NCBI GenBank assembly: GCA_028825345.1
Contig: JAPKAJ010000001.1
Span: 1-35,909 of the forward strand
DNA: 35,909 nt
Source of the DNA: Arenicellales bacterium
GTDB taxonomy: Bacteria; Pseudomonadota; Gammaproteobacteria; Arenicellales; UBA868
Reading direction: 5' to 3'
Part shown: positions 182 through 28,091 of the stretch, piece after piece
Layout: each line of letters begins with the position of its first letter
Position numbering within the stretch: the stretch's first letter is position 1
The notes under the pieces: model-generated
Databases searched by the model: none
Seen by the model: the letters and a program-made list of their open reading frames with translations, nothing else
Told to the model about the DNA's origin: nothing
Position numbers and translations under genes: made by a program

Positions 182-931
182 TCACCGAGTTTTAAAGTGA
201 GGGCGACGCACCTTTTTGTTCGGCCAGTTCGTGGATGGTCGGTTTCTAGCGATAGAGCGATTGGTTTCGCGGATTATGCTGATGTTATCTCGCACCCAGG
301 TCAGCGCCAGGATCTGGTCGCGGAAACCGTTGGACGCCGATCCTGCCAGGGCGTCGTCGTACTTTGACAGATCAAGAAAACCAAAAACGCCGAGCCGATA
401 ATTGACGGTAACAATCACCACGTCGCCCTGGGCAGCAAGAATAGAACCGTCATGTTCATTGCCGGACCCGATGTAGTAAGCGCCCCCGTGAATCCAGAAC
501 AACACCGGCCGGGCGCGACCGTCCGCTGCAGGTGTGTAGATGTCCACAACCAGGCAGTCCTCACTGTATGTCGCTGACGACGACCCTAGACCGGGGATTT
601 TGGGTTGCATTGCGCGATTACCCGGCCGCGTGGCATCCAGCGTGCCCGACCAGGGTCCACGAAGTTCCGGTGCCTTGAAGCGGCGTTCACCGACGGGAGG
701 CTTTGCGTAGGGAACGCCCCGGTAGATCTGGATATCGTTTTCCGACTTTCCGACAATGGCGCCAAGCCGTGTCGTTATCGTGGTCATCGCAGGGACTTCC
801 TGTTCCTGGCGCACACCACCCACGACTTCCACCGCTACCACTGGCACCGATACCATAATGGCTGTCAACAAACCTGCAAGAAATCCTCGTTGTTTACCGG
901 TCCTGTTGCTTTCTGCATCTGCTTTGATCAC
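182..931 (-). pseudogene. 3'-truncated type-B carboxylesterase with a signal-peptide-like N-terminal extension
   Basis: From ATG at 787 (MTTITTRLG) to about 278 (DQILALTWVRDNI) it is nearly identical to the start of 11073..12545. It then runs into unrelated sequence and stops before the GESAG nucleophile motif, so the whole catalytic triad is missing. Upstream GTG at 931 has a GGAG RBS and adds a hydrophobic stretch (GFLAGLLTAIMVSVPVVA). Confidence 0.85.
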
Positions 932-962
932 AAATTTCTCCCATGGTCACGTCGCTTCCAAT

Positions 963-987
963 ACTGAATAGTGAATCAATATTCAAA
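963..987. promoter_or_regulatory. Palindromic operator copy 1 with overlapping leftward sigma70-like promoter
   Basis: ACTGAATAGTGA-A-TCAATATTCAAA, 3 mismatches to the consensus palindrome. Minus strand: TTGTGA (996-991), 17 bp, CACTAT (973-968). Confidence 0.75.
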
Positions 988-1091
988 TTATCACAAACGA
1001 TTTTTCAGGGGCTTAGCTTATGGTAGCAAGATGGTTGAATCGAAATTGTGGGATTCCATTTCGCACGTTCTTTGAGGTGATGTCGTCATGC

Positions 1092-2588
1092 CTAAAGATC
1101 ACCCCATCGCGTGCGATTCTGGACATCAAGTTCTGCACCGACAATATAGCTCGGTAAATCCAGCACCAGCGATTGTCGCTCAGTCTCATTGTACGCTGGC
1201 CATTGCGGCAGGCCACCGCCGTTGGGGTTGCCGCTGCGAGCAAAATTGATCAGCGTCTGTGACCAGGCTTGGGCCAGCGCCTGAATTTCCGGGTCCTCCC
1301 TGTCGTGCATGACCAACCCGAGACCTTCTTTGCTGGCGTAGCTGTTGAACGTGAAACTCATCTCGGCACCGTGCGCCGCGCCTAGCTTGCCGTCCATGGC
1401 GTTGCTGGGCACATCGAATCGGTATAACCAACCACCCACGCCAGCAGTTGTTGCTGCTTCAACATTCTTGATGGCGGCACGCCGGAATGAGTCAGTCAAT
1501 ATGTACCCATAGAGGGTTCTGGGGTCGTCGTTGGGGTATTGCTGTTGCAACGTGGCCAGGTAATCCCTGGGATCTTCATCTTCTATCACCCTGCGCGCCG
1601 CTGCGGTCGCCACAGGTCCGAATACATCATTACCGCGATTCGGGTCATCGGGCATCAGCATCGAGAATGCGCTGCCTTCATCGCGATTGGAGCCCGCGAA
1701 GTAAGGTATCCCCGCAGACTTACTTTGAGCGAAAGCCTCGGGTCGTGTTCGGGTCACCACCGTACCGTCTATGCAGGCGCCCACGCGAGCCCCGAGCGTC
1801 TGTTGTGCCTGAAAAATTTGTGGACCCTGCATCGAAGCCAGCTTAGCTGGCAGATCCTGGGTGGCAACCTTGAGCTGCTTCGCCAGTAGCGGTGCCACGT
1901 CGGCCGGTGGTGTTGTTGGCGAGGTACCGCTGTGTGAAATTGCTTTGTGGTAAAGGCCGTCGGCAGCCGGTGCCGCCAGTAAACAGTTGACTGACGAGCC
2001 TCCGGCGGAACAGCCAAAGATGGTCACGTTTCCTGCATCGCCGCCGTAGTCGCCTATGTTGTCGCGTACCCACTCAAGCGCAAGGATCTGATCGCTAATA
2101 CCGTTGGAGGCAGATCCTTGATACTGATCACCATAGGCAGACATGTCCATGAAGCCGAGCAGACCCACGCGGTAGTTGATCGTCACCACTACCACGTCGC
2201 CTTGCCCGGCCAGCACGTCGCCGTAATGCTCAGAACCCGAACCGGTACTGAACCCGCCGCCATGTATCCAAACCATGACCGGTCGTTTACCCGCTGAGGC
2301 GGGGGTGTATATGTTCAGGAACAGGCAGTCTTCGTCGTAGGTTTCGCTAGCGACATCACGCCGGGAAAGTATGGCGAATAATTCGTTTCCCGTAGGGACC
2401 GGTTGTAACGATCGATTACCGGCGGTGCTGGCATCAAATGTGCCAGTCCAACCGCCTGACGGTTGTGCAGCCTGAAAGCGCAGATTGCCCGCAGTCGCTG
2501 CGCCGAAGCGGATGCCATGGAACATGTGGATGTCTTCGTCGCGGATGCCTTCGATGGCGCCCAGGCGGGTATTGAAACGAGTTTTCAT
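1092..2588 (-). CDS. Type-B carboxylesterase (COesterase/PnbA-like)
   Basis: EDCLFLNIYTP, WIHGGG oxyanion motif, GCSAG nucleophile, NRDEG acid, GAAHGAE His. Start chosen at MKTRFNTRLG by alignment with paralog starts; 2597 or 2648 are possible. Confidence 0.9.
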   Translation of the reverse strand: MKTRFNTRLGAIEGIRDEDIHMFHGIRFGAATAGNLRFQAAQPSGGWTGTFDASTAGNRSLQPVPTGNELFAILSRRDVASETYDEDCLFLNIYTPASAGKRPVMVWIHGGGFSTGSGSEHYGDVLAGQGDVVVVTINYRVGLLGFMDMSAYGDQYQGSASNGISDQILALEWVRDNIGDYGGDAGNVTIFGCSAGGSSVNCLLAAPAADGLYHKAISHSGTSPTTPPADVAPLLAKQLKVATQDLPAKLASMQGPQIFQAQQTLGARVGACIDGTVVTRTRPEAFAQSKSAGIPYFAGSNRDEGSAFSMLMPDDPNRGNDVFGPVATAAARRVIEDEDPRDYLATLQQQYPNDDPRTLYGYILTDSFRRAAIKNVEAATTAGVGGWLYRFDVPSNAMDGKLGAAHGAEMSFTFNSYASKEGLGLVMHDREDPEIQALAQAWSQTLINFARSGNPNGGGLPQWPAYNETERQSLVLDLPSYIVGAELDVQNRTRWGDL

Positions 2589-2787
2589 TGCTGTCATACC
2601 AGTACCAACGTTGCTCTGGGGATAAGAAGAATCGTAGTCGACTCCCATGCTACAGAATCGGAATCAGCTATGTCACCGGAATTTTAACTCACTCTACCTA
2701 AACCCAATTTTTCCTCTTCCCATTGCCTTCAAAAACCGTGTAATGTCGCTTCTTTCTCCACCATCATTCTTGCAAACAGGAGCGCCA

Positions 2788-4155: not shown

Positions 4156-4201
4156 TCGGCCTCCATCTGCACTCAGCCCAACCATAACGATCCTCCAGAG
4201 T

Positions 4202-4606
4202 TTACGCGGGGCGAAATACAGGGATGACGCCACCATCGGGAAACTGTTCAAACGTCACCTGCACTGCCATGCCGGCCTTGGCGTCCGCGGGATCGCAGTC
4301 CACCAGGTTGCTCGGCATACGCACGCCCTCCTTCAGGTCGATCCAGGCGAGGATCAGCGGCAGCCGCCCCTCGTGACGGGGATGATAGACGCGGTGCAGG
4401 CGCGCATGACTGTAGACGGAGCCGCGGCCCGACACTGCACGCCAGGCAAGATCCGTGCTGCCGCAATGCTGGCAGCGCTGCTTCACCGGATACATCCATC
4501 CATTGCAGTCAATGCAACACTGCATGCGCAGCTCACCGGCGCGCGCCCCTTCAAAAAATGGTTCGTTATTTTCGTCGGGCTCCGGCAGCCATGTCGCTTC
4601 AGTCAT
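4202..4606 (-). CDS. DUF35-type Zn-ribbon/OB-fold protein (ChsH2 C-terminal-like)
   Basis: CxxC...CxxC Zn ribbon (CIDC, CQHC), GRGSVYS, GMAVQVTF. Lies directly downstream of a thiolase-fold gene, the canonical pairing. Confidence 0.9.
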   Translation of the reverse strand: MTEATWLPEPDENNEPFFEGARAGELRMQCCIDCNGWMYPVKQRCQHCGSTDLAWRAVSGRGSVYSHARLHRVYHPRHEGRLPLILAWIDLKEGVRMPSNLVDCDPADAKAGMAVQVTFEQFPDGGVIPVFRPA

Positions 4607-4617
4607 CGTTCGTCTCC

Positions 4618-5784
4618 TCAGGCCGCTTCCGGCGACAGTACCAGGGTTGAGTGATAGGCCAACACGCCGCCGTTGCCGGACACCATGATAAGGTCGTTAG
4701 GCGCCTGGCGCTCGCCACCCTGACCGCGCCCCTGGATCACGGCTTCCGAAACCGGTGTCATGCCCCACATATAGAACGACGACAGCTCTCCGCCGCCCGT
4801 GTTGGTAGGCAGGCCGCCGCCGGGACCGAGTTGGCCATCGGCGACAAACGATCCGCCCTCGCCTTTTTCGCAGAAGCCATAATCTTCCAGCGTGACGATC
4901 ACCGTATAGGTGTAGCAATCGTAGATCTGGCACTGACTGACGTCGCTAACTTTGGCACCGGCCATGGCCAGCGCGCGCGGAGCTGATTGCGCACCGGCCG
5001 TATGAATGTACGGATCGTGATCCGCCTGACCTGTGTCGTGGTTGTGACTCTGGGAAAACCCGCGGATGTACACCGGCGGCTGCTTGAGGTCCCGGGCACG
5101 TTCCGCTGACGTAACAATAACGGCCACACCACCGTTGGAGACCAGGCAGCAGTCGAGAACATGGAACGGTTCTACCACCCAGGGCGACGCGTTGTAACCA
5201 TCCAGGTCCAGTGGCTCCCTTTTGCTGGCACGCGGATTCATGGCGGCCCACTGACGTTGGGAGATGGCCACGGCAGCGAGTTGCTCCTGAGTGGTACCGA
5301 ACAAGTCCATGTGGCGTTGAGCTGCCATGGCATACCTGGGCAGAGCGCCGATAATGCCGTAAACGGGCTCAAGCGATGCCATAGCATTGGGCGGTCCGGA
5401 TCTTGCGTACGACACCGCGCCGCTACGTTGGTTTTCCTTCAACGGTGAATCCGCGAACACGCAACACACAGTGGTTGCTAGCCCGTTTGCCACAGCCATA
5501 GCGGCATACTGAATCATCTGCCCTGCACTGGAGCCGTAACCCTGCATGTAGGTCAGCAGGTTCAATTGCTTGAGGCCCAGGGTCATATGCAGGGGCACAC
5601 CGACCCCCTCACCTATACCGGCATTAACCAGCAGTCCGTCCAGATCGGATTTCTGCAGCCCCGCATCTTCCAGCGCCAGGAATACGGCCTCGGCAGCCAG
5701 GTCTTCGGCGTCCCGATAGACGCGACCCATCTCGGTGATGCCTAGGCCAGTGATGGCGACCGCGCTGTTCATTGGATGTTTCAT
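4618..5784 (-). CDS. SCP2/Ltp2-type thiolase-fold protein, probably a non-thiolytic (aldolase-like) member
   Basis: VAITGLG, LDCCLVSNGGVA, IYDCYT, NTGGGELSSFYMWG. No Cys at the usual N-terminal nucleophile position (QGYGSSAG) and no GHP motif. Confidence 0.85.
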   Translation of the reverse strand: MKHPMNSAVAITGLGITEMGRVYRDAEDLAAEAVFLALEDAGLQKSDLDGLLVNAGIGEGVGVPLHMTLGLKQLNLLTYMQGYGSSAGQMIQYAAMAVANGLATTVCCVFADSPLKENQRSGAVSYARSGPPNAMASLEPVYGIIGALPRYAMAAQRHMDLFGTTQEQLAAVAISQRQWAAMNPRASKREPLDLDGYNASPWVVEPFHVLDCCLVSNGGVAVIVTSAERARDLKQPPVYIRGFSQSHNHDTGQADHDPYIHTAGAQSAPRALAMAGAKVSDVSQCQIYDCYTYTVIVTLEDYGFCEKGEGGSFVADGQLGPGGGLPTNTGGGELSSFYMWGMTPVSEAVIQGRGQGGERQAPNDLIMVSGNGGVLAYHSTLVLSPEAA

Positions 5785-5823
5785 GATAGCTGACTCCTAA
5801 ATGACGGGACTGGCCCGGCAGCG

Positions 5824-7416
5824 CTAGACAAGTTCACTAGCCACCAGCAACTCGATGCAGTCCTTTTCGATGGGTTTCTCCGAGATGGTTTTGGGAATCT
5901 CAATTAGCGCCTGGAAGATCTCCGGAACATCGTTGCGCTCCAGGTGCTCGCGGCAGTAGTCGAGCAGTTGCCCGCTGTCGTAGCCAGTCGGATCAGCGGG
6001 CACAACAGCCGCCACCAGGGTTTTCTCTCCCGCGACGTTGCTTTCCTTGGCCACCCCATAGACAAACACATCTGCCACCAGGGGCGATCCCATGAGTACA
6101 GTTTCCACCAGTGTGGTGTTGACGAAATCCCCATTGCGTCGCACGCCGCCGCCAACCCGGTGGTGGAAGTAAAACCAGCCATTGTCATCCTTGTGGCCCA
6201 GGTCACCCATATGAAGCCAGCCATTGCGAACCTTATCGGAAGAGGCCTTGGTATTCTTGTAGTACTGGACAATGATCGGGCTGTTGTCCTCTTTGCGGAA
6301 ACAGATTTCACCCTCTACATTAGCTGCGCAGACAGCGCCGTGATCGTCGAGAATTTCAGCGACCCAGCCGCTGATCGGCTTGCCAATACTGCCCACTGGG
6401 CCTGTGCCGGGGGGGTTGCGCATAGCGCCGCCTTCGGTGGCTCCATAGACCTCGGTCAACTTCAGACCGAACCGCTTTTCAAACTTTTCCCACAGATGGG
6501 CAGGCATGCCGGCACTCTGGACGACGCGTATCGGATTGTCGGCGTCGTCTGGCTTTTCCGGCATCGCATAGATTTCGGGGATCATCCCCCCCAACAAGTT
6601 AAACGTGGTGCAACCATAGCGGCGAGTAATGTCCCACAATCGAGTCTTGGTGAACTTGCGGCTGATGACACAGCAAAGCTCCTGTCCAAGGGCGCCAGCC
6701 ATCGTGCCCTGGGCGTTGATATGCGTGAGGGAAAGGCCGGTGTAGTACCTGTCGCTGCTAGTAATAAAACCAGCAGAAAGGGGGCCTAGGGTAATACCCA
6801 TGTACTTGCGGTGTGTGAAATGTACGGCTTTGGGATTGCCAGTCGTACCGGAGGTAAACATCATAAACATAGTATCGTCCGGGTCCTGCTCCGCCAAAGC
6901 CAGCGGCTCCCCCGCCGCTTGGAGGAGATCAGAAAAGAGGATGGCGGGTAATGGTGTCCGCGGCGCGAGGGGAAGGTCTGCCGTGGACACCACCACCAGC
7001 CATTTGAACTCAGGACAGTTCGCCACTACCGACAGCAATGACGGTAGCGCGTAGTCGGCGCATATCGCGCCCTGGCATTCGGTGAATTCGAGCATGTAAC
7101 TGAGTTTGGCGCCCATGGTGCGAGGGTCGATGGGAACTAGCGCAGCGCCAAGGATTCCACTGGCCACCATCGTCTCCACAAACTCCGGATGATTGTTCAT
7201 CATCACCGCCAGCTTGTCCCCCTGGCTGACACCCAGATCATTCAGGCCCCGCGCCAGCGCCTGACCGTGATCGAAGAGCTGCCGGTAGGTTCGGGTCTCG
7301 TCCTCCAGTTGACCATCAGTGCCCACAGTGACAAACGTAAGAATCGCAAGGTCGGGGTTTGTCTGGGCTTTGTCCGTAATCAGCGCGGCCAGGTTGGTAT
7401 GGGCGGGACCGTTCAT
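5824..7416 (-). CDS. Acyl-CoA ligase (ANL superfamily, CaiC-like)
   Basis: FTSGTTGNPK AMP-binding loop, YGATEG, GWLHMGDLG, PKTISEK. ATG at 7416 overlaps the upstream TGA (ATGA), so the ORF-track start at 7602 is too long. Confidence 0.9.
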   Translation of the reverse strand: MNGPAHTNLAALITDKAQTNPDLAILTFVTVGTDGQLEDETRTYRQLFDHGQALARGLNDLGVSQGDKLAVMMNNHPEFVETMVASGILGAALVPIDPRTMGAKLSYMLEFTECQGAICADYALPSLLSVVANCPEFKWLVVVSTADLPLAPRTPLPAILFSDLLQAAGEPLALAEQDPDDTMFMMFTSGTTGNPKAVHFTHRKYMGITLGPLSAGFITSSDRYYTGLSLTHINAQGTMAGALGQELCCVISRKFTKTRLWDITRRYGCTTFNLLGGMIPEIYAMPEKPDDADNPIRVVQSAGMPAHLWEKFEKRFGLKLTEVYGATEGGAMRNPPGTGPVGSIGKPISGWVAEILDDHGAVCAANVEGEICFRKEDNSPIIVQYYKNTKASSDKVRNGWLHMGDLGHKDDNGWFYFHHRVGGGVRRNGDFVNTTLVETVLMGSPLVADVFVYGVAKESNVAGEKTLVAAVVPADPTGYDSGQLLDYCREHLERNDVPEIFQALIEIPKTISEKPIEKDCIELLVASELV

Positions 7417-8189
7417 TGGCGGGTATCTCCCGTTGCTTTGAGCTCGCCCATGCCCCAGGCAATACCTCTGCGCAGCAGTTCGTAATACACGGGCGAATTC
7501 CAGGAACCCCGCACCACGGGAATAATGTCCCTGATCGGTTTCATATCGTGCTTGCCCGCGCAGTGGCCCAAAGACAGATACAGCACCTCGCCCTCTCCCC
7601 AAGGGTGCACATACATCTGCGGGTGGCTGTCGCGATCGGTGCCATAGTCGGACCGTGCATAGCCGCTCGAAGGCTCGTTGTAGGAGGCCTCGAGTAATAC
7701 CAGCTGTTCTCCCAATTTTTCACAGTAATAGGGTTCTTCATCTTCCACTTCGAAGTCTGATATGCCTGCGGTCAGTGGGTGCTCAATATCACTGACCCGA
7801 ACAGTGAATTTTTGGTTGGCAGGATGAGCAATAAATCGGCTACCTAACAACTTCATAAAGTCGGGGGCAAGATCTGGCGTCTCCGCCTTGCGGCCTTCTA
7901 CGATCTCCAGGATGGCATTTGTCGCGTGCAGCGCGAACCATCTACCGCCGGCTTCAAGAAACTCTGCCAACGCAACCTGCTCTTCGGCTGTGGGACGAAG
8001 GTCACACGTATAAGTAATCAGCAGCTGGCACTGCTTAATGGTTTCCGTATCACCGAAATTTCCTGCTACATGCGTGTGAATATCTGCGTTTTCCGCAAGC
8101 ACCTTGAGCAGCTCGAGCCTGGCAAAATTGGTATTGTGATAACGGGCGTTGCAAACCAGATATACATTGTTGGGATGAGTCTGTTGCAT
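7413..8189 (-). CDS. ThuA-like domain protein (class I glutamine amidotransferase-like fold)
   Basis: GGRWFALHATN, HPLTAGISDFEVEDE.PY and GEVLYLSLGH patterns; AAGGAG RBS. Confidence 0.8.
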   Translation of the reverse strand: MQQTHPNNVYLVCNARYHNTNFARLELLKVLAENADIHTHVAGNFGDTETIKQCQLLITYTCDLRPTAEEQVALAEFLEAGGRWFALHATNAILEIVEGRKAETPDLAPDFMKLLGSRFIAHPANQKFTVRVSDIEHPLTAGISDFEVEDEEPYYCEKLGEQLVLLEASYNEPSSGYARSDYGTDRDSHPQMYVHPWGEGEVLYLSLGHCAGKHDMKPIRDIIPVVRGSWNSPVYYELLRRGIAWGMGELKATGDTRQ

Positions 8190-8233: not shown

Positions 8234-9763
8234 CTACATGCTCCCGATCGCGGGGTCATCTGCCCATAGTTCATTGATCTCGTGATCGGGGTCCAGTAGC
8301 AAAGACGGTTCAGTCGAAAATCTCATGGTTGCGGGTAAGTCCCGGCTATAGACGGGCCATTCTGGCAGCCCCGATGATGACGGCGCGCCTTCTCGTGCAA
8401 AACTCAACCAGGCATCCATGGTTCTGGCGGACAGCACATCCGCTTCTCGTCCTTCAACAAAAAATCCGGCCGAACCATTTTTATCGTACGTTCCCCAGTT
8501 GAAACCAAGTTCTACCGCATGACACGCACCCACGACGCCTTCCATCAGCGGCGACGGCCAATCAAACAGATAGGAATAGGTCACGGCGTGTTCAGACTGC
8601 GCTTCAAGCAATCGCAGCGCAGGAATCCTGAAAACCTGGTCCGTCATAAATGCGGCCAGTACATCCACGGGCAATGAAGCCTTGTGGCGTGACTGCAGCC
8701 ATTCCCGATATTTAGCGATGACTTTATCCGCTGTATCAGGAAAGAAGGCCGCTACCTCTGCCTGCAGCTGTTGCTCATTCATATTGACCCGGGCAGGATC
8801 AATCACGGCAAACAGTCGCCACTCTTCCCTGCACGTACCAGTCATTACGGCAACACCAGCAGCTGATCCTTTCCGCACAAGGTTAATTGGCATCTCAGGT
8901 ATGACTGTTCCGTCAACATTCGGCCGAAATGCGCCCATGCCAGGCAGATTTTTGCCAACGGCAGCTTTGGCAAAATTCACCTGTAACTCACTAAATGCAG
9001 AGACTGGCAGTGCCAGAAGCGCTGAAGGATCAAAGGTACCAAGCAGCTCCAGCGCCAGCTCTGCCACCTGAAGTCCCTTCTCTGGCGAATTGGCGGAATG
9101 GCAGGCACCGCTCTGGGGAATCGCCTTGTGAAAAAGCCCTTTCGCTGCGGGCATCGCCATGAGGCAACCCACGGACATGCCACCTGCACTTTCCCCAAAA
9201 ATAGTGATGTTTGCAGGATCCCCGCCGAAGACGGAAATGTTATCACGGGTCCATTCGAGTGCCGCCACCTGGTCAAGCAGCCCCTCATTTCCTGTGGCCG
9301 GGATCTTGCCCCCTGTAAGCGCTTTCAGGTTCAAAAAACCGAGAGCGCCCATACGATAGTTGATGGTCACTACCACAACATCACCACGATCTGCGAGGTG
9401 CTGGCCGTCATAGATGGGCTGTGATCCCGACCCCATCGTAAACCCACCACCATGAATCCAGAACATTACCGGTCGTTTGCCCGCGGTTGCGGGAGTCCAT
9501 ATATTGAGGAAGAGACAATCTTCAGCCTGCTCGGGCGGTGTGTCGGCTTGTCCCATAAGCCAGTCAAGCATGCTTGAGTCTTGCGGTGCCTCAGCACCAA
9601 ATTTTGATGCATCCCGAACACCATCCCAACCAGGGTGCGGCTGCGGTGCCTGCCATCGCAGGTCTCCTACGGGCGGTGCGGCAAATGGTATGCCACGAAA
9701 TACCTTAAGCTGGTTTTCCTGCGTACCTTTAATTTTTCCAAGTGTGGTCGTTACTACGGTCAT
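8234..9763 (-). CDS. Type-B carboxylesterase (PnbA-like)
   Basis: FRGIPFAAPPVGDLRW, EDCLFLNIWTP, WIHGGG, GESAG, REEW, GACHAVE. ATGA overlap with the upstream amidohydrolase. Confidence 0.93.
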   Translation of the reverse strand: MTVVTTTLGKIKGTQENQLKVFRGIPFAAPPVGDLRWQAPQPHPGWDGVRDASKFGAEAPQDSSMLDWLMGQADTPPEQAEDCLFLNIWTPATAGKRPVMFWIHGGGFTMGSGSQPIYDGQHLADRGDVVVVTINYRMGALGFLNLKALTGGKIPATGNEGLLDQVAALEWTRDNISVFGGDPANITIFGESAGGMSVGCLMAMPAAKGLFHKAIPQSGACHSANSPEKGLQVAELALELLGTFDPSALLALPVSAFSELQVNFAKAAVGKNLPGMGAFRPNVDGTVIPEMPINLVRKGSAAGVAVMTGTCREEWRLFAVIDPARVNMNEQQLQAEVAAFFPDTADKVIAKYREWLQSRHKASLPVDVLAAFMTDQVFRIPALRLLEAQSEHAVTYSYLFDWPSPLMEGVVGACHAVELGFNWGTYDKNGSAGFFVEGREADVLSARTMDAWLSFAREGAPSSSGLPEWPVYSRDLPATMRFSTEPSLLLDPDHEINELWADDPAIGSM

Positions 9764-10950
9764 ATTTCTGTACCGATCTGGTAGACGCGGGCCGCGCAGT
9801 CATGGAAGAGCTCGTTCTTCTCGGTCGCCGTGAGCTTTAGCGCCGTCGTGACTCTCTTGAACGCGTTCCAGAGATTCGTATACGAGCACGACACCTTGTC
9901 GATGGGAAAATTCGACTCGAACATGCAGCGCTCCACGCCGAAGGCTTCGATCAGCTCCGCAAAGTAGGGTTGCCACGCCGTCGCCATCTCATCGGACGAA
10001 GGTGGCGCGTCGCGCTCCTCATAGCCCCATCCGTAGGCCGGCATGCCGCAACCGCCCAGTTTCATTACGACGTTTGGGCAACCGGCGAGTGAGCGGACAG
10101 CCCGCTGCCACTCGATGAACACCACGCCATCTCGCTCATTGGCCAGCGGACCCTTCTTGATCAGACCGCCGATATGGTTAACGACGATACTCACGCCCGG
10201 GAACGCGTTGGCGAGGTCTTCGACCTCACAGAGTTGCGTGTAATACCCATAGGAGTCGAACGAGAGATTCAGGCGGTCGAGCACTTTGAACCCAGCCCGA
10301 AAGTCGTCACTTGCGAGCAGTCCAGGTGTATCACCGGCCGTGCGGGAGTTCCCGATATCCGGCGATTCATGCCAGGCGTGAGAATGGCGAATGCCTCGAA
10401 ACCGGGGGCTTGCCGCCCGGTGGGCAAGGAGCACAGGCTCCACCGCTGCACCCAGGGTCAGATCCGCATAACTGACGATGGCCCCACAGCACCGCGCATC
10501 CGGGCCGTAGAGATTGCTTGCGGCCATGGCCGCGATGCCGTTCACGAATTCGGTCTCGCCGACGCTGAAATCGGCGCCTCCGTCGGCTCGATACATCGCC
10601 ATGCTATCGATGAACACAGTGTCGACGACGTTGTGGCCGCCGCCGCGAACGTCGTCCATGAGATCGTCAGCGAGATAGCAAAGCGGGAGACGACCGATCC
10701 ACTTCGGCAACGCGTCGATCTCGGATTGGGTAAGTGATCCCTCGGGAGACTCGGGTCGCGGCCGCCGATCCCACAAATGGTGATGGGGATCGATGATGGG
10801 TTGTTCCGGGTCGATGACCTCTTCCGACGTGCGTGCGAGCCATTCCCGCAGCACGACGCCCGGCACGTCGGGAAGGTCTGACCATCGCGGCAGCCCGGCG
10901 CCGTTAGGATCGCCATTGCGCGCGAGGGCTTTGCGAATTATTTTTGACAT
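9760..10950 (-). CDS. Amidohydrolase_2 family metal-dependent hydrolase (lactonase-like)
   Basis: IIDPHHHLWD, RFRGIRH, VNHIGG, MKLGG, CMFESNFPID. Paralog of 34413..35525. The first 23 or so residues include a carboxylesterase-derived segment. Confidence 0.88.
   Translation of the reverse strand: MSKIIRKALARNGDPNGAGLPRWSDLPDVPGVVLREWLARTSEEVIDPEQPIIDPHHHLWDRRPRPESPEGSLTQSEIDALPKWIGRLPLCYLADDLMDDVRGGGHNVVDTVFIDSMAMYRADGGADFSVGETEFVNGIAAMAASNLYGPDARCCGAIVSYADLTLGAAVEPVLLAHRAASPRFRGIRHSHAWHESPDIGNSRTAGDTPGLLASDDFRAGFKVLDRLNLSFDSYGYYTQLCEVEDLANAFPGVSIVVNHIGGLIKKGPLANERDGVVFIEWQRAVRSLAGCPNVVMKLGGCGMPAYGWGYEERDAPPSSDEMATAWQPYFAELIEAFGVERCMFESNFPIDKVSCSYTNLWNAFKRVTTALKLTATEKNELFHDCAARVYQIGTEI
10882..10929 (-). 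pseudogene. 48-nt carboxylesterase C-terminal remnant fused in frame into the amidohydrolase N-terminus
   Basis: Encodes ALARNGDPNGAGLPRW; 41/48 nt identical by hand alignment to 12393..12440 (AFARTGDPNGAGLPHW) of the adjacent esterase. Confidence 0.8.
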
Positions 10951-10952: not shown

Positions 10953-10977
10953 ACTGAATGTTGATTCAATATTCAGT
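10953..10977. promoter_or_regulatory. Palindromic operator copy 2, bidirectional promoter
   Basis: ACTGAATGTTGA-T-TCAATATTCAGT, 1 mismatch. Plus strand: TTGACA (10944-10949), 17 bp, CAATAT. Minus strand: TTGTGT (10986-10981), 17 bp, CAACAT. Lies between divergent genes. Confidence 0.88.
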
Positions 10978-16051: not shown

Positions 16052-16114
16052 AATGGGAAATTTAAGCCAGTAGAAGTCGAATCAAGAAACGTATCTGAAG
16101 AAAACAGAACTCTC
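16052..16114 (+). pseudogene. 63-nt remnant of a second Zn alcohol dehydrogenase gene (C-terminal part)
   Basis: Encodes NGKFKPVEVESRNVSEENRTL versus DGKIEPVEVESRNVAEANRTL at 21727..21789; 51/63 nt identical by hand. Confidence 0.82.
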
Positions 16115-17168: not shown

Positions 17169-19601
17169 CTAGAACTCATAGGTAGCCTCAATCCCATAGC
17201 TCCTAGGTCTGGCGTAAGAATTAACTATTCCGAAAAGCGATTCGCCCCCGTTCCACACGAGGATTTCGTCATCGAACAGATTCCTGCCATACAGGGCCAG
17301 CCGCCACCGGTTTTCCGCAGCCTCTCGTATTGTCACGCGTATATTGGCCATGTTGTACTGCGGAACTTCCCTCCGATCGGTATTTTCCACATCGGACCAG
17401 CTTTTGGTTTGACCCGACCAGTCGAGGCGTACCTCCCCTTCGATACCAGGCATCACTGGAAACATATAAGCGGCCGATGCGGTCCATTTCCATTCGGGAG
17501 CATCGGGGAGTCTATTACCCTTCGTTTGAGCTAGACCGCCTTTGGGTTGAAAGGCCGAATCGATTTCTGCTTCAATCCACTGGACGCCTAGCCGCACGAA
17601 GAGATTCTCGGTGACCATCCCGGAGGCATTCAAGTCAAAACCCGTGCTATGGGCTTTACCGGTATTCCCATTGTAGGTCAAAGCCGAAGTTATACCGGCA
17701 AGGGGCCCTGCATCTTGTAGCATTATCGCGTCTTTCCAATCGAAATAGAATGCGGATCCTGTAAGATTCATACGGCCATCCAATAGCCTGAGCTTCGCGC
17801 CCAGTTCGTAATTGATCGCAGAATCACCATCAAAGTACAGCTTTGAATTCACAGCGACGAGTCTCTCGGAAACCAGGGCATCCTCCCCATCGCGAGTGGG
17901 CAGGTTGATATCACCGGCAGTTGCCAGAAGGTTATTCAGTAGGCCTAGATCATAGTTAAGATCGCCATTGTAGCCGCCCGGACGAAATCCGGTACTGACG
18001 ATGCCGAAATACATCATATCTTCATTCGGCCGCCAGGTCAGGCCAACCCTAGGTGTCCACTCCTGGTCATCAGTTCCCGCATTCACACGCGAGAACTCCT
18101 GCGTCATGTCTGTGTATCGCACACCTGCGTTAAGTTCCCAGCTTTCGGACAACGCGTAACTGAAATCGCCGAAGATCGCATATTCTTCAAGGCTATTATC
18201 AGGGCTATTTTCAGGCGCTAGCAGGAAGCTCTCATACTGCGGCCGCCACTGTTCCGTTTCTGGGGTCAGTCCAAAGGGTGCGTTTCTGCTTGTGGAATCG
18301 TCGCTGTCCTTGTAAAAAAATCCTGCTATCCAACCGAACGGACCATCCCCATTGGAAACCAGACGAAACTCCTGCGCAAAGCGTTCTGATTCGATGTAGA
18401 ACGTCCCGGCAAACGACGTCATATTAGTCATATCCTGAGGATTGCCAGTAAAAGGGATGGGGGCACTGGGATCACCGAACGGTGCCAATTGATAATTATT
18501 AACGAGTGCGGCATACCAGTCGATTAAGTGCGTACCGGTTTCCAAAAATTCTTGAGAAAAACTCGCGTCCCGATCGAAATAGGAAGTGGAGGACGTAAAA
18601 TCCGCCCAAGGAAACGCGTACTCAACCACCAGGTTATACTGTTGCAGATCATCGTAGGATCCAGGTGCAAATGGCGATGCTTGCGTTTCGACGTAATAAG
18701 GTGCTGAAGCCCAGGCATAGCTGTCCGTTTCGGATTCGAGGGTAGAAGCCGTGAATTTTACAGACAACTGATCCGTAGCCTGCCATTTGGCAGTTATCCT
18801 TCCCCCACTACTCGTCTCCGTGTTTATATCTTTCTCTACGGTGGTTCCGGCAATTGTTCTTCGGTCAAGATAGCCCGGTGACTCTGTTGTAAACCCCACC
18901 AGCCTGACGGCGAACTTGTCTTTAACAAGGGGGATGTTAACCATTCCGTCAAAACGGTAGCCTGTATCGCCGGACTCATTCATGCCATTAAAGTTGACCT
19001 GGACTTTAGAGGCCCACTCGTTGAGATCCGGCTGATTACTGATGTAACGGATGGTGCCCGCCATCGATCCCTCGCCGAACAGGGTTCCCTGGGGCCCATT
19101 GAGAACCTCGACACGTGCCAGGTCGAACATCACTCCACCGATCTGCCGATCCGGCTCCTGACCCCCGGTCACTGGTGTTTCATCGATGTATATAGACGTC
19201 ATGGCTTTAGTCTGGTTGGGTGCCTCATAACCGGATATCGCTCTTATACCCCGTATGCTGACGTTGGTTCTGGACGAATCAGTTTGAATAACATTGAGGC
19301 TGGGAACGGCAAGGGCCAAGTCGGCCATGTTCTGAAGACCCATGCTCTCGATCATAGACTCATCTATCGCCATCATGGAGAGGGGCGTGTCCATCTCCGC
19401 CGTATCCCTGTACGTGGCCGTGACCACAATCTCATCCAGGAAAGGTGTCGCTTTCTTTTTCGCTTCCCTTTCCATGTCACCCGCGGCGGCTGCATGGGTG
19501 GCCGCAGGTAAAAAGGTCAAAAAGCCAAAAAAAACCAGTGAAAATGTCACGACCTTGGCAGGCCAATCGCTTCTTCTTCCGATAAAGTTTCTTGAGATCA
19601 T
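17169..19601 (-). CDS. TonB-dependent outer-membrane receptor
   Basis: GAGGT RBS and ATG at 19601; signal peptide; TonB box LDEIVVTA; plug motif RVEVLNGPQGTLFG; C-terminal RPRSYGIEATYEF ending in Phe. Confidence 0.93.
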   Translation of the reverse strand: MISRNFIGRRSDWPAKVVTFSLVFFGFLTFLPAATHAAAAGDMEREAKKKATPFLDEIVVTATYRDTAEMDTPLSMMAIDESMIESMGLQNMADLALAVPSLNVIQTDSSRTNVSIRGIRAISGYEAPNQTKAMTSIYIDETPVTGGQEPDRQIGGVMFDLARVEVLNGPQGTLFGEGSMAGTIRYISNQPDLNEWASKVQVNFNGMNESGDTGYRFDGMVNIPLVKDKFAVRLVGFTTESPGYLDRRTIAGTTVEKDINTETSSGGRITAKWQATDQLSVKFTASTLESETDSYAWASAPYYVETQASPFAPGSYDDLQQYNLVVEYAFPWADFTSSTSYFDRDASFSQEFLETGTHLIDWYAALVNNYQLAPFGDPSAPIPFTGNPQDMTNMTSFAGTFYIESERFAQEFRLVSNGDGPFGWIAGFFYKDSDDSTSRNAPFGLTPETEQWRPQYESFLLAPENSPDNSLEEYAIFGDFSYALSESWELNAGVRYTDMTQEFSRVNAGTDDQEWTPRVGLTWRPNEDMMYFGIVSTGFRPGGYNGDLNYDLGLLNNLLATAGDINLPTRDGEDALVSERLVAVNSKLYFDGDSAINYELGAKLRLLDGRMNLTGSAFYFDWKDAIMLQDAGPLAGITSALTYNGNTGKAHSTGFDLNASGMVTENLFVRLGVQWIEAEIDSAFQPKGGLAQTKGNRLPDAPEWKWTASAAYMFPVMPGIEGEVRLDWSGQTKSWSDVENTDRREVPQYNMANIRVTIREAAENRWRLALYGRNLFDDEILVWNGGESLFGIVNSYARPRSYGIEATYEF

Positions 19602-19644: not shown

Positions 19645-19669
19645 ACTGAATACTGATTCAATATTCAGT
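19645..19669. promoter_or_regulatory. Palindromic operator copy 3 with leftward promoter for the TonB-dependent receptor
   Basis: ACTGAATACTGA-T-TCAATATTCAGT, 1 mismatch. Minus strand: TTGACA (19678-19673), 17 bp, CAGTAT. An extra box CCAATATTGA lies at 19681-19690. Confidence 0.88.
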
Positions 19670-19703: not shown

Positions 19704-20258
19704 TTATAAAGAAAGCAAGTCGTAATTCTTCCCCATCCGGACCCGTAACGTTCGGGTCGCCCGTGCGAGGGCTGCAATCTGGTCTTCATAACCTCGGTTA
19801 GCGCTCCCCGCGTATTCCGGACCCCATCGACTTACATCGAGAAAACCAAAAATACTCAGGCGGTAATTGATCGACACCACCACAATGTCATTATTCCGAG
19901 CCAATGCGGTACCGTCGTATAGGTTGGCGGAGTCCTGGATCAACCCGCCACCGTGAATCCAGAAGATCACTGGGCACGGTTTGCCTCCTGTCCCGGGGTG
20001 TAGATGTTCAAGTACAGGAAATCCTCACTCTCAGCGCCAGGTTCCCTTCCAACCATGACTTCCTGATCAGCCGGCGGCTGCGGGCAAAAGTTTGGGAAGT
20101 GGGTCGCATCGAATGTCCCGTCCAGTCAGCGCTGGGGCCGGTGCACGCCAGCGTCTGCTGCCAACCGGTGCTGCCGCATATGGCAACCCCAGAAAAACAT
20201 CAACGCCGTCGTTGTGTAAACCCTACACCTTGCCTAATCGAGTCTTAACCACTGTCAT
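19704..20258 (-). pseudogene. Degenerate carboxylesterase
   Basis: GGGAG RBS and ATG at 20258 give [32 protein letters not shown], with TAG at 20225-20223. Frameshifts precede SEDFLYLNIYTP and IFWIHGGG. After DQIAAL it jumps out of frame to RTGDPNVTG (19767-19741). Confidence 0.9.
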
Positions 20259-20441: not shown

Positions 20442-20495
20442 CAGTTTCAGTTTCAGTTTCAGTTGCAGTTGCAGTTGCAGTTGCAGTTGCAGTTG
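20442..20495. repeat. Compound hexanucleotide tandem repeat (CAGTTT)3(CAGTTG)6
   Basis: Directly visible; ends flush against operator copy 4 at 20496. Confidence 0.95.
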
Positions 20496-20520
20496 ACTGA
20501 ATATTGATTCAATATTCAAT
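20496..20520. promoter_or_regulatory. Palindromic operator copy 4, probable bidirectional promoter
   Basis: ACTGAATATTGA-T-TCAATATTCAAT, 1 mismatch. Minus strand: TTGGCA (20529-20524), 17 bp, CAATAT. Plus strand: TTGCAG (20487-20492, inside the repeat), 17 bp, CAATAT. Confidence 0.85.
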
Positions 20521-20796
20521 TTATGCCAAAAATTATAATCCCGTACGTAAAGTGGCTATCTCGTCCTTGCTGCATAGGCTCGTTCCCGACCATTTGGTTG
20601 AGAACGTTAATCACCTCAGAGACGAGTTCGTGATCACAATTGTTATGAAAACGCCCGGAAATGGATTGACACTGGCTTCAACCGGTTTCGTGACACAAAA
20701 CCCCAAAAACGTTAAACCTGACATTTGATTTCGACGGGATAAAGAAAACGACGGATTCCGGTGTGTACCAGAGACCTAAACTAAACAGGAGACATT

Positions 20797-21843: not shown

Positions 21844-22044
21844 GCTTATGAGCACGACCGGAGCGCTGGAAGCTGGCGTCATCGACCGGCTTACGCCGAC
21901 GGCGAGGGAATAGAAACGGCGATAACGATCGCAGAGAGATTAGCGAAGTTGCCGGGTACGTGTATGCGTTAACCACACAGCATATGCACAAGAATGGCCT
22001 TGGAATAATGAAAGCCGATTTCTACACAAACGATACCTGACGTT

Positions 22045-22977: not shown

Positions 22978-23086
22978 AACGATTCCTCCAATTTTTCATC
23001 CCCGCCAAGTCTTAACGGGTACCTGGTAAATAACAAACACGGGCAGCATCTAGATCTAGACCTAACCCCTTAGTAGTATCGTTTTC

Positions 23087-24412: not shown

Positions 24413-24876
24413 TCGTCAAATTCCAACAGCTCAACATCGAAACCCAATTTTTCGAGTCCCTGCAGGAAGGCATAGCGGCCACCAGGTGCAGCGCCCATCG
24501 CAGGGAAGTTACCGTTCTGCAGCAACGGCAAACCAATGTCTTCCAGACTGCCAATGACAGGCTCCATCCCATTCACGATAAAGGCAAGGTGATGGATGCC
24601 GTTGCCTTTTTGGGCCAGGCAGTCCTGAAAAACGCTTGGCCCTTCAACAGGTTCTATAAACTCCAGCACGATGTTCTTCAATGGAATATAGCCAACCCGG
24701 GCGCGCCCCTCAGTAGGTTTGCCTCGATAGAGGCTCTGGGTCTCCTCATGAGCTCCGGTGACGCTCGAAGGAGGTGTTTCGATGCCGAACAATTCGGCGA
24801 ACATTGTTAAATATTTTTCGACATCGTCTACGACAAAAGCAATTTTTAAAACGTTGTGCGGTAACAAAGAGTTCAA
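24409..24876 (-). CDS. VOC family protein (glyoxalase/methylmalonyl-CoA epimerase-like)
   Basis: GGAG RBS with TTG start; IAFVVDDVE, LEFIEP..GPS, GIHHLAF, VELLE. Confidence 0.85.
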   Translation of the reverse strand: MNSLLPHNVLKIAFVVDDVEKYLTMFAELFGIETPPSSVTGAHEETQSLYRGKPTEGRARVGYIPLKNIVLEFIEPVEGPSVFQDCLAQKGNGIHHLAFIVNGMEPVIGSLEDIGLPLLQNGNFPAMGAAPGGRYAFLQGLEKLGFDVELLEFDE

Positions 24877-24936
24877 GGGTGTCTCCTTTGATCAAATTTC
24901 CCTGGCATTATTCTTCGATCTGGTTATCAAACCATA

Positions 24937-26142: not shown

Positions 26143-26182
26143 CTTATCGCCCCTTAGTTGTTTTGGTTAACCATCTCTGCGG

Positions 26183-27964
26183 TTACTGCCTGAATTCCAG
26201 CCCTTCGTGGTCGCCTGCGTTTCGCCAGTCTTCAAGCAGTTTGAAAAATGCCAGTGGGCCTTGCGGGTACACAGTAATGGCGCCGCTGGATTTACCCTCG
26301 CCGTTGAAGTAACTGGGCGTGCACTCGCCCTGACCTAGGAAGGGGGGCGCCACGGTACTTTGAATCATCTTGGTCCAAGCCGATTCAGCCTCTTCGGTGA
26401 CCTCGACCTCACGTACGCCTTCTTCGAGGGCACGGCCGATGATGTACGTCAACTGCATCGCGGCCTCATCGACCAGGTGCGTGAAGTTCGAAGTGAGGCC
26501 GCCTTGTTTGGCCCCGACGATAAATGCGTTCGGAAAGCCGCGGGTGTGCGTGCCGTGCAAACTACGCATGTCGTCGCCCCAATGCGCTGACAACTTGCGA
26601 CCGTCCCGACCGATCAATTCGTAACCGATCCGCTGGGTGAACGCAGTGCCCACCTCGAAGCCCGTGGCGTAAATGAGACAATCAACTTCGTACTCGACGC
26701 CATCGACCACGACGGCGTTCTCGGTGATACGCTCGCAACCCTTGCCGTCGGTGTCGACCAGCTTCACGGCCGGTTCGTTGAAGGCCTGCAGGAACTCGTC
26801 GTGGAAGCACGGCCGCTTACAGAACAGCGCATACCAGGGCTTGAGCGCCGCTGCCGTGGCCGGATCCTGGACGTGTTCGTCGACCCGGGTCCGCAGCTCA
26901 TTCATCTTGCCCATATTCATGCGCTCCATCAGCGCACCGAACTCTTCCGGTGACATCTCGGCCCCGGCCTTCATGTGCTCGAGGATTCGGGCGATGAGGT
27001 CGGTCCAGGCATCGTCCACCAGGTCCTCGGTGACATCACCGCCGTGGGTCATCGCAGTGAAGTTCTCGATCCGCCTGGCCTGCCATCCTGGCTCCAGCGA
27101 CGCAGCCCACTCGGAATCGGTCGGTCGGTTGTTGCGCACGTCGATCGTCGAAGCAGTGCGCTGGAATACACAGAGTTCCTTGCACGCCTTGGCCAGGTGA
27201 GGAACAATCTGCACCGAGGTAGCGCCGGTGCCGATGAGACCCACCCGCTTGTCTCGGAGCTTATCCTGTCCTCCGAGCACGTTGCCGCCGGTGTAGTCGT
27301 AATCCCACCGACTGGTGTGGAAAGAGTGACCCTTGAAGTTCTCGATGCCTGGAATCCCCGGTAGCTTCGGCCGGTGTAGCGGACCATTACCGATGACTAT
27401 GAACTGGGCCCGTATCGCATCGCCCCGGTTAGTGCAGATAATCCATCGCGATGCGTCGGCATCCCAGTCGACGGCGGTGATCTCAGTCGAGAGGCAGGCA
27501 TTGTCGTAAAGTCCGAAGTGCTTGGCGATTCGCTGACAGTGCGCCTGGATCTCAGGTGCATGGACGTACTTCTCTGTGGGGACGTAGCCGGTCTCTTCGA
27601 GCAGCGGCAGGTAGACATATGAATCGATATCACACTGTGCCCCCGGGTAGCGGTTCCAGTACCACGTGCCTCCAACGTCGCCAGCTTTGTCGATGAGGCG
27701 CACGTCAGTAATCCCCGCCTGGACCAGGCGGGCGCCGACCGTCAGCCCCGAGAGCCCGGCACCGATCAGCGCCACTGTCACGTCGTCCGCCAGCGGCTCC
27801 CGCGGCGTCACCTCGCTGTAGGGGTCGTCGAGAAAATGAGCGTATTGCCCCTTGAGCTCAACAAACTGACTGATGCCGTCTGTGCGCATGCGCTTCTCGC
27901 GTTCTACGCGGTACTTTGCCCGGATCGATTCGGCGCCGAGGTCGGAATTGTCTGTCTCTGTCAT
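26183..27964 (-). CDS. Type I Baeyer-Villiger monooxygenase
   Basis: GAGLSG and GTGATS Rossmann motifs, GGTWYWNRYPGAQCD, BVMO fingerprint FKGHSFHTSRWD, ATGF. Start placed at MTETD (27964, AAGGGA RBS), not 28063. Confidence 0.93.
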   Translation of the reverse strand: MTETDNSDLGAESIRAKYRVEREKRMRTDGISQFVELKGQYAHFLDDPYSEVTPREPLADDVTVALIGAGLSGLTVGARLVQAGITDVRLIDKAGDVGGTWYWNRYPGAQCDIDSYVYLPLLEETGYVPTEKYVHAPEIQAHCQRIAKHFGLYDNACLSTEITAVDWDADASRWIICTNRGDAIRAQFIVIGNGPLHRPKLPGIPGIENFKGHSFHTSRWDYDYTGGNVLGGQDKLRDKRVGLIGTGATSVQIVPHLAKACKELCVFQRTASTIDVRNNRPTDSEWAASLEPGWQARRIENFTAMTHGGDVTEDLVDDAWTDLIARILEHMKAGAEMSPEEFGALMERMNMGKMNELRTRVDEHVQDPATAAALKPWYALFCKRPCFHDEFLQAFNEPAVKLVDTDGKGCERITENAVVVDGVEYEVDCLIYATGFEVGTAFTQRIGYELIGRDGRKLSAHWGDDMRSLHGTHTRGFPNAFIVGAKQGGLTSNFTHLVDEAAMQLTYIIGRALEEGVREVEVTEEAESAWTKMIQSTVAPPFLGQGECTPSYFNGEGKSSGAITVYPQGPLAFFKLLEDWRNAGDHEGLEFRQ

Positions 27965-28025
27965 AGGGGGTCCCTTGCTGGGTGGATTATAGAAGATTCG
28001 CCGTTCGCTATGCCGCCCGCTTGTG

Positions 28026-28091
28026 AAGCGCACCAGACCAGGGTCCGCAGGGTTCCGGCGCATGTAGCGTCATTCACCACTGGGGGGTCAT
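28026..28091 (-). pseudogene. Carboxylesterase N-terminal remnant in the BVMO leader
   Basis: GAGGAAG RBS, then ATG-AC joined to CCCCCAGTGG-TGAATGACGCTA-CATGCGCCGGAACCCTGCGGACCCTGGTCTGGTGCGCTT (PPVGE..HAPEPCGPWSGAL). About 48/63 positions identical by hand to 11160..11222 (PPVGERRFQAPELHGPWSGTL). Confidence 0.78.

What the first reader, a model, noticed from the sequence alone, without database searches (positions are those of the whole stretch)
182..28091. Regulon growth by promoter capture: operator+esterase cassettes copied, esterase deleted, new genes left behind the operator
Seen: seven esterase-derived sequences, three intact and four broken, and every broken one lies just downstream of an operator. 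Copy 1 leads to the truncated esterase (787-278). Copy 2 leads leftward to a 48-nt C-terminal scar and then the amidohydrolase operon, and rightward to an intact esterase. Copy 4 leads to the esterase pseudogene. Copy 5 leads leftward to a 66-nt N-terminal scar and then the BVMO operon. Inference: the operator spread attached to an esterase gene, and later deletion wired other catabolic genes into the regulon. Alternative: several orthologous clusters were acquired from relatives and redundant esterases were pruned.
Basis: partly seen in the sequence, partly recalled or inferred. Interest (0 to 1): 0.75.

Follow-up and report, generated by a model that had tools for sequence, protein, structure and literature searches.

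The report
Pruned operon copies behind TetR operators
A catabolic gene island carries leftover esterase fragments in front of genes that relatives keep in one operon behind an intact esterase, so it is likely ordinary trimming of several copies of a predicted TetR-repressed operon, not capture of new genes.

Summary
The five palindromes, the esterase pseudogene and both scars are real (0/1000 shuffles). The 'truncated' esterase (787-278) is most likely a chimeric assembly join. In three other runs the contigs continue into the esterase C-half, G041 has the gene intact, and contig C163 holds its missing half. The count is therefore four intact and three broken. The palindrome is the predicted operator of a TetR gene on C163. 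It lies 1-21 nt before that TetR's orthologue in 9 of 9 relatives with upstream DNA, mostly with no esterase nearby. G791 has operator-TBDR-esterase-BVMO-amidohydrolase-ThuA-ligase-thiolase in one run, and G848 and G836 have similar runs. BVMO and amidohydrolase were thus already behind the esterase, and the deletions shortened operons without adding genes. G848 and G836 carry their own esterase scars with no operator. TetR and ADH remnants in the window show that whole clusters were multiplied. Two side findings have more interest. A TonB-receptor signal peptide is fused to one esterase lineage (22 of 25 clade rows). In G791 an operator copy plus a cupin-gene head precedes an operon that sits behind ECF-sigma/FecR elsewhere.

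The parts
1..279 (-). Foreign sequence, probably chimerically joined; 109-2 is a FolD-like start
280..931 (-). Esterase E1, 5' part. It is intact elsewhere and continues on G000:C163. GTG start at 931, esterase core from 787
820..941 (-). RBS plus signal-peptide-like head of E1, homologous to the 5' end of the TonB-dependent receptor that precedes the esterase in G791 (76%, E=1.5e-18)
963..987 (.). Operator copy 1; upstream flank resembles that of the TetR gene's own operator on C163 (22/40, 0/5000 shuffles)
1092..2648 (-). Intact esterase E4 (49% aa to E3), no operator upstream
4202..8189 (-). ThuA-like gene, CoA ligase, lipid-transfer-type thiolase and ChsH2 (tail of the ancestral operon; 83.6% nt to G791)
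8234..9763 (-). Intact divergent esterase E2 (37% aa to E3), between amidohydrolase and ThuA; absent at that place in G791
9760..10950 (-). Amidohydrolase_2 with a chimeric N-terminus (7 TetR-like codons, 11 esterase codons, then native GLPRW)
10882..10929 (-). Esterase C-terminal scar (esterase aa 441-456); 10929-10897 is esterase-only, the rest overlaps the native amidohydrolase start
10930..10950 (-). Probable TetR start (7 codons), 2 nt after operator 2; resembles the G042 TetR start (1/5000 shuffles, 1 of 18 comparisons)
10953..10977 (.). Operator copy 2, divergent; TTGACA-N17-CAATAT on the + strand
11073..12545 (+). Intact esterase E3 (type-B carboxylesterase)
12570..13865 (+). MFS1 (77% nt to MFS2 at 23087-24412)
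16053..16113 (+). Remnant of a second ADH 3' end (84% to 21728-21788), no operator
17169..19601 (-). TonB-dependent receptor behind operator 3; no esterase trace in the spacer (343/1000)
19645..19669 (.). Operator copy 3; TTGACA-N17-CAGTAT on the - strand
19741..20258 (-). Esterase pseudogene: stop at codon 12, frameshifts; aa ~162 appears joined to the aa-443 RTGDPN motif by an internal deletion (weak match)
20496..20520 (.). Operator copy 4, divergent between the esterase pseudogene and the TetR remnant
20556..20707 (+). TetR 3' remnant (117/149 nt to the C163 TetR), followed by ADH 20797-21843, as in G042 (TetR then ADH)
26183..27964 (-). BVMO (83% aa to the G791 and 82% to the G848 operon BVMO), followed by PhyH, glyoxalase and MFS2
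28027..28091 (-). Esterase N-terminal scar: RBS, ATG ACC, then codons ~29-50 with frameshifts
28186..28210 (.). Operator copy 5, divergent between scar/BVMO and a non-native yejBEFA-like ABC operon

Best explanation
The island likely holds three or more old, diverged copies of one catabolic cluster under a predicted autoregulated TetR repressor, and short deletions likely trimmed redundant leading genes (esterase, TetR, TonB receptor) from them. The 25-bp palindrome is inferred to be the TetR operator. It overlaps a predicted sigma-70 -10 element (CAnnAT, 17 bp after a TTG-type -35) and often serves two divergent promoters. The inferred ancestral run was operator/TBDR-esterase-BVMO-amidohydrolase-(MFS or ThuA-CoA ligase-thiolase-ChsH2). 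Complementary deletions at 3-9 nt microhomologies split it into short operator-headed units. One kept the esterase and MFS, one kept BVMO, and one kept amidohydrolase-ThuA-ligase-thiolase. The scars record the old gene order, so regulon membership of BVMO and amidohydrolase did not change. Some deletions joined reading frames: a TBDR signal peptide onto esterase E1, and TetR plus esterase codons onto the amidohydrolase. Shown directly: sequences, scars, gene orders in relatives, TetR-operator adjacency. Inferred: binding, promoters, polarity, mechanism of deletion and origin of the copies.
For: Operator 1-21 nt before the TetR orthologue in 9 of 9 genomes with upstream DNA (10 found among 400; G692 is cut by its contig end). 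Seven of these were found by the protein search, not by the collection-wide operator scan. The reversed pattern found 0 matches in these genomes. G791 has the operator-headed run at 83-84% nt to four separate window segments. G848 has esterase-BVMO-esterase 3' scar-amidohydrolase, with the scar's TGA overlapping the amidohydrolase GTG start. Sibling proteins P0126 and P0129 carry the same shifted-frame stretch before VSGLPRW. Native amidohydrolase starts are M/V-x-G-x-P-R-W or close in 9 of the 10 closest other-cluster representatives (P0002-P0011); P0004 is called from a later start. Scars occur without any operator in G848 and G836 (0/300 shuffles each). TetR and ADH remnants lie in the window. 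Paralogue pairs at 77-79% nt (MFS, E1/E3, TetR remnant, glyoxalase) are more diverged than window orthologues are from G791/G848 (83-86%). E1 and E3 fall in separate clades, each with a G042 counterpart. The scars are no closer to the window's E3 than to G848's esterase (29/33 vs 29/33; 31/42 vs 32/42). operator-TetR-BVMO occurs in 5 genomes with no esterase in the fetched stretches.
Against: No genome shows the exact pre-deletion state of operators 2 or 5. Only 3 of 400 genomes held the close amidohydrolase, so ancestral order rests on G791, G848, G836 and G042. G042 has esterase directly before ThuA, with no BVMO or amidohydrolase. The TetR origin of the amidohydrolase's first 7 codons rests on one match (1/5000, 18 comparisons), and in G042 that TetR starts 21 nt after its operator, not 2 nt. 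E2 and yejBEFA have no operator-linked counterpart in the fetched relatives and may be real recruits. The ADH remnant (84%) is no older than the G791 split. The tree is a quick search without bootstrap, with long branches. No binding or expression data.
Confidence: 0.72

Rival explanations
1. One reading: operator+esterase cassettes were copied next to unrelated catabolic genes, and esterase deletion then wired those genes into the regulon.
For: Both scars are significant and lie 22 and 94 nt from an operator. Operators 1, 2, 4 and 5 all head an esterase or its remnant. In G791 a copy of operator plus gene head really does precede another operon (185 nt, about 89% identical), so this mechanism exists in this regulon, with a cupin-like gene as the passenger.
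Against: BVMO and amidohydrolase follow the esterase directly in G791 and G848. The operator tracks TetR. Scars also occur without an operator. Window esterases are 37-76% identical at protein level and lie in deep separate clades. No transposase or integrase among 31 ORFs scanned.
Confidence: 0.1
2. One operon was duplicated in place in this lineage (tandem or inverted, the palindrome acting as a fold-back point at operator 2) and then subdivided by complementary deletions; nothing was imported.
For: Window segments are all 83-84% from G791. Scar 2 lies inverted relative to E3 across operator 2 and matches E3 well (29/33). Complementary retention of esterase, BVMO and amidohydrolase fits a split of one operon.
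Against: Paralogue pairs (77-79% nt) predate the split from G791/G848. Scars match G848's esterase as well as E3. E3 shows no identity switch at codon 441.
Confidence: 0.13
3. The truncation of esterase E1 at 279 is real in a minor strain (island end joined beside folD), so four copies are broken, as first read.
For: The window itself has the join. X1 was read only to 69%, and contigs drop rare variants.
Against: None of the listed pieces in 4 runs bridges it; three runs and G041 continue into the C-half; G000 itself holds the C-half on C163; the depth ratio is 8.5 vs 188.
Confidence: 0.08

Closest known systems
TetR-family divergent local regulons (TetR/tetA paradigm; genome-context survey PMC3511530, passages read)
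   Same: PF00440 repressor with a palindrome in front of its own gene and a divergent enzyme gene within 200 bp.
   Different: Uncharacterised TetR subfamily and 25-bp operator; one exact-string search found no paper. Several operator copies and TetR remnants lie in one island. Binding and ligand untested.
EdcR/edc oestrogen cluster of Caenibius tardaugens (PMC8700777, passages read)
   Same: TetR repressor, palindrome over the -10 box of several promoters of one catabolic cluster, autoregulatory site.
   Different: Operator TnnCnnTACnAnTnGTAnnGnnA does not match. The substrate here is unknown. Protein homology to EdcR was not tested.
Promoter capture / gene fusion by deletion (PMC4395868, passages read; E. 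coli citT case as cited there)
   Same: Deletion places a downstream gene behind an upstream gene's promoter and start, sometimes in frame.
   Different: There the gene gains a promoter it lacked. Here BVMO and amidohydrolase were already in the run behind the esterase. The G791 operator+cupin-head copy is the closer analogue.
Deletion-born fusion genes (PMC12803068, abstract only) and relocalisation by fusion, FadA-FwsR (10.1101/091744, abstract only)
   Same: In-frame joins of neighbouring genes by deletion; E1 gains a targeting segment from the upstream gene.
   Different: Here the donor is a TonB-receptor signal peptide and the fusion persists across a whole esterase clade. Localisation is untested.

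Membership tests
TetR-family local regulon | N-terminal TetR HTH (PF00440) in the cognate regulator | tested here: met
   E=1.6e-12 for the G041 copy, 97% identical to G000:C163
TetR-family local regulon | Palindrome directly before the regulator gene, conserved with it | tested here: met
   9 of 9 orthologue loci with upstream DNA, plus C163/G041
TetR-family local regulon | Operator overlaps promoter elements | tested here: inconclusive
   -35 matches 5-6 of 6 at 17 bp from CAnnAT on one side of operators 2-6, 4 of 6 for operator 1; consensus reading only
TetR-family local regulon | Protein binds the site, represses, and is released by a ligand | not testable with these tools
   needs EMSA and reporter assays
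Promoter capture (window BVMO and amidohydrolase) | Visible junction joining a promoter-bearing gene head to another gene | tested here: met
Promoter capture (window BVMO and amidohydrolase) | Captured gene was not under that promoter before | tested here: not met
   esterase-BVMO-amidohydrolase adjacent in G791 (operator-headed) and G848
Promoter capture (G791 TBDR operon) | Promoter plus gene head duplicated in front of an operon that has another regulator in relatives | tested here: inconclusive
   Duplication met. ECF-sigma/FecR/N-terminally extended TBDR in G848 and G836. A remnant of the lost extension was not significant (148-310/2000), so polarity rests on parsimony
Mobile regulatory cassette / MGE | Transposase or integrase, terminal repeats, uniform recent copies | tested here: not met
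   none among 31 ORFs; flanks differ and esterases are 37-76% identical; target-site duplications not searched specifically
Deletion-born fusion gene (E1) | Both parents adjacent in a relative, in-frame join, parts of both flanks kept | tested here: met
   TBDR then esterase in G791 and G836; head scores 101 vs shuffle maximum 32; spacer before the esterase ATG kept
Deletion-born fusion gene (E1) | Fusion is expressed and exported | not testable with these tools
   hydropathy fits a signal peptide; no signal-peptide predictor run, no RNA reads laid
Type-B carboxylesterase (PF00135) | COesterase fold with Ser-Glu-His motifs | tested here: met
   Pfam above cut-off; GxSAG, Glu and GAxH motifs in E1-E4 (motif roles recalled)
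EdcR regulon | Operator TnnCnnTACnAnTnGTAnnGnnA | tested here: not met
   read against the window palindrome

The most novel reading that the evidence does not exclude
This TetR regulon is a natural record of operon-scale rewiring. A TBDR-esterase-BVMO-amidohydrolase operon under ECF-sigma/FecR cell-surface signalling was captured whole by a copied TetR operator. It was then multiplied and split by deletions into operator-headed units. One deletion gave the esterase the TonB receptor's signal peptide, founding a long-lived exported esterase family (22 of 25 clade rows) that works beside its cytoplasmic parent. yejBEFA and E2 would be true later recruits.
Probability: 0.35. Interest if true: 0.55.

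Novelty: new member of a known kind. Interest (0 to 1): 0.33.

Why it matters
The headline claim (regulon growth through esterase-borne operators) does not hold, and one supporting case is probably an assembly error. What remains is a TetR-operator pair I found no paper for, well supported by comparative data and ready for an EMSA. It is also a readable natural series of deletion intermediates in several genomes, showing how a long catabolic operon is split and how deletions create fusion genes. If E1 is really exported through a borrowed TonB-receptor signal peptide, it is a wild, long-retained example of relocalisation by deletion, a process I found described from experimental evolution (10.1101/091744, abstract).

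Tried and rejected
Metagenome scan with the amidohydrolase alignment returned only 43-60% relatives and was not used. Viral-contig scans with the operator, TetR and amidohydrolase found nothing. Plasmid tblastn with TetR: no match. TetR in 399 genomes of G000's class: 0, one genome not scored. TetR in 400 other genomes of G043's order: 0. Operator in 27 congeners: 0. Earlier-findings look-ups were empty. Rejected: TetR-start origin of the right flanks of operators 3, 4 and 5 by start similarity (not significant; operator 4 is tied to TetR by its 3' remnant instead). Rejected: a TetR remnant between operator and ABM in G042 (379/1000). Rejected: a remnant of the N-terminal extension before the G791 TBDR. 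Rejected: an inversion breaking E3 at codon 441 (no identity switch). Rejected: G042's E1 leader matching the G791 TBDR at DNA level (970/1000; at protein level its tree sister P0345 does match). The operator-5 leader resembles a G044 leader only marginally (1/1000, 10 comparisons). The C-terminal motif at the end of the pseudogene is weak by itself (tblastn E=9.4). Three equal contig lengths between the amidohydrolase and TetR hit lists (66 x 44 values) hint at co-location, but that DNA was not seen. Other operator matches (Acidimicrobiia, Melioribacteraceae and others) were not annotated beyond a tblastn with window proteins. Literature searches gave no description of this regulon or operator; only the open-licence library was searched and no supplements were read.
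Full report
OBSERVATION. The window is a catabolic island: esterases, thiolase/ChsH2, CoA ligase, amidohydrolases, MFS, TonB-dependent receptor (TBDR), ADH, PhyH, BVMO and a yejBEFA-like ABC system. It is the whole contig C200 of G000. Five copies of a 25-bp palindrome are real. A PWM scan of the genome finds a sixth on C163 and nothing else above 18 bits. I tested the scars against six esterase genes with 1000 dinucleotide shuffles. The C-terminal scar scores 63 (maximum 32), its esterase-only 33 nt score 51 (maximum 31), and the N-terminal scar before BVMO scores 50 (maximum 32), all 0/1000. The eight other spacers tested show no esterase trace. Run X5, from another study, holds 12500-30000 in one contig, so these remnants and the pseudogene are genuine.

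THE TRUNCATED ESTERASE IS PROBABLY AN ARTEFACT. Contigs of X5, X7 and X10 that cover position 280 onward run into esterase C-terminal sequence. In X1, a possible source run read to 69%, bases 1-278 are a separate contig at depth 8.5 against 188, and no listed piece bridges the join. G041 carries 280-12674 at 98% with the esterase intact, followed by an operator and a TetR gene. G000's own C163 starts 27 nt further along the same gene. So there are four intact esterases and three broken ones. A rare strain with the join is not excluded.

WHAT THE PALINDROME IS. On C163 the sixth copy lies 1 nt before the ATG of a PF00440 protein. A protein search of 400 genomes of G042's family found 10 orthologues. 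In all 9 with upstream DNA the palindrome lies 1-21 nt before the start; G042 and G043 had first been found through the collection-wide pattern scan. Reversed-pattern controls gave 0 in these genomes. In G043, G079, G611, G615 and G619 the order is operator-TetR-BVMO (54-58% to the window BVMO). G079 and G615 also have a divergent BVMO directly on the other side. No esterase was found by tblastn in 12 fetched loci. The palindrome supplies a CAnnAT hexamer 17 bp after TTGACA or a near match, so I infer an operator overlapping sigma-70 promoters, as is usual for TetR regulators (PMC3511530 and PMC8700777, passages). Binding is not shown. The operator was not found in 27 congeners and the TetR not in 399 genomes of G000's class. 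G000 has its own genus-type yejF (57% to the window's). The island is therefore foreign to the genus or wrongly binned.

WERE THE GENES NEW? No. G791 has operator-TBDR-esterase-BVMO-amidohydrolase-ThuA-CoA ligase-thiolase-ChsH2 in one run, 83-84% identical in DNA to four separate window segments. The amidohydrolase search of the same family found 3 of 400 genomes. G848 has ECF sigma-FecR-TBDR-PhyH-esterase-BVMO-amidohydrolase-MFS. G836 has ECF sigma-FecR-TBDR-esterase-PhyH-BVMO-MFS-amidohydrolase. Neither shows the operator or a TetR orthologue; their completeness is not given. Both carry their own esterase scars. G848 has a 3' end whose stop overlaps the amidohydrolase GTG start, and G836 has a 5' end fused in frame to the MFS gene (0/300 shuffles each, 2 of 8 spacers tested). 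Orthologous amidohydrolases start M/V-x-G-x-PRW, which resembles the esterase motif GLPHW. The window's scar is thus best read as a short deletion between the two look-alike motifs of already coupled genes. The 25 nt before the window's BVMO start match the esterase-BVMO spacer of G848. Against this: G042 has esterase directly before ThuA, and no genome shows the exact prior state of operators 2 and 5.

WHAT WAS MULTIPLIED. Whole clusters, not operator+esterase cassettes. Operator 4 is followed on the right by a TetR 3' remnant and ADH, matching G042's esterase-operators-TetR-ADH divergon. The amidohydrolase's first seven codons resemble G042's TetR start (1/5000; one of 18 comparisons). Operator 1's upstream flank resembles the TetR operator's (0/5000). 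A second ADH left a remnant at 16053-16113. Paralogue pairs are 77-79% identical in DNA, more diverged than window orthologues are from G791 and G848 (83-86%). The scars match G848's esterase as well as the window's E3. A quick IQ-TREE tree (SH-aLRT only) puts E1 and E3 in separate clades, each with a G042 member, and E2, E4 and the pseudogene on long outside branches. It has 83 rows; I left out P0297, three chimeric or partial hits and 40 of the 60 weakest hits. Import of separately evolved clusters is the likelier origin; old in-place duplication is not excluded.

SIDE FINDINGS. First, the 48-residue head of E1 with its RBS is homologous to the 5' end of the TBDR that precedes the esterase in G791 (76%; score 101 vs maximum 32). 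The spacer before the esterase ATG is also kept. The head matches the TBDR segment in 22 of 25 database rows of the E1 clade, and only weakly in 2 of 94 others. It is hydrophobic like a signal peptide. This looks like a long-retained deletion-born fusion (compare PMC12803068 and 10.1101/091744, abstracts only); export is predicted, not shown. Second, in G791 the operator heading the operon is an about 89% copy of a neighbouring operator together with the first codons of a cupin-like gene. The same operon sits behind ECF sigma/FecR in G848 and G836, whose TBDRs carry an N-terminal extension. Its polarity is inferred by parsimony only. Esterase E2 and yejBEFA have no operator-linked counterpart in the stretches fetched and may be true recruits.

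VERDICT. Observation partly confirmed. This is an apparently undescribed TetR local regulon shaped by known processes (promoter capture and fusion by deletion: PMC4395868, passages). My searches cover only the open-licence library. Interest 0.33.

Noticed in passing
L203:16190-16373 and 17073-17255 (G791): Operator plus about 90 nt upstream and the first codons of a cupin-like gene are duplicated (about 89%) in front of the TBDR-esterase-BVMO-amidohydrolase operon: a likely real promoter capture.
   Followed up: partly
L218:12170-15001, L220:13500-16187, L203:2584-5595: TBDRs behind ECF sigma/FecR carry a signal-peptide-like segment internally, after their N-terminal (STN-type) extension; the G791 orthologue and esterase E1 use this segment as their N-terminus.
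   Followed up: partly
L220:7652-9010 (G836): MFS gene begins with about 26 in-frame codons of an esterase N-terminus, an independent fusion in a genome where no operator was found.
   Followed up: yes
window:28245-33838: yejBEFA-like ABC operon starts about 40 nt from operator 5 with no esterase trace; 57% to G000's own yejF, so a second, foreign copy and a candidate true recruit.
   Followed up: partly
window:20438-20495: Hexamer array (GTTTCA then GTTGCA units) abuts operator 4 in the leader of the esterase pseudogene; a G042 operator has a similar short flank.
   Followed up: no
window:14734-16035: CehA/McbA-like metallohydrolase in two ORFs; run X17 shows deletions across 14635-15480 and 15619-15994, so decay is ongoing among strains.
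   Followed up: partly
window:20797-21843: ADH gene has 43% GC against 55% for the window, yet is 88% identical in protein to the G042 gene.
   Followed up: no
L139, L140 (G041): A 98-99.6% identical island sits in a bin titled Planctomycetota, and close TetR/esterase hits are named from Acidobacteria and Planctomycetaceae bins, while the 65-72% orthologues are in G042's family: mis-binning or wide transfer.
   Followed up: no
P0346, P0349: Other near copies of esterase E3 in the protein database are frameshifted or internally deleted; P0346's extension reads through an operator.
   Followed up: no
L022, L025, L038, L046: A nearly identical 25-bp palindrome occurs in four Acidimicrobiia records with similar flanks; the regulator there was not identified.
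   Followed up: no
window:19682-19709: Degenerate half-site-like sequence 12 nt right of operator 3.
   Followed up: no
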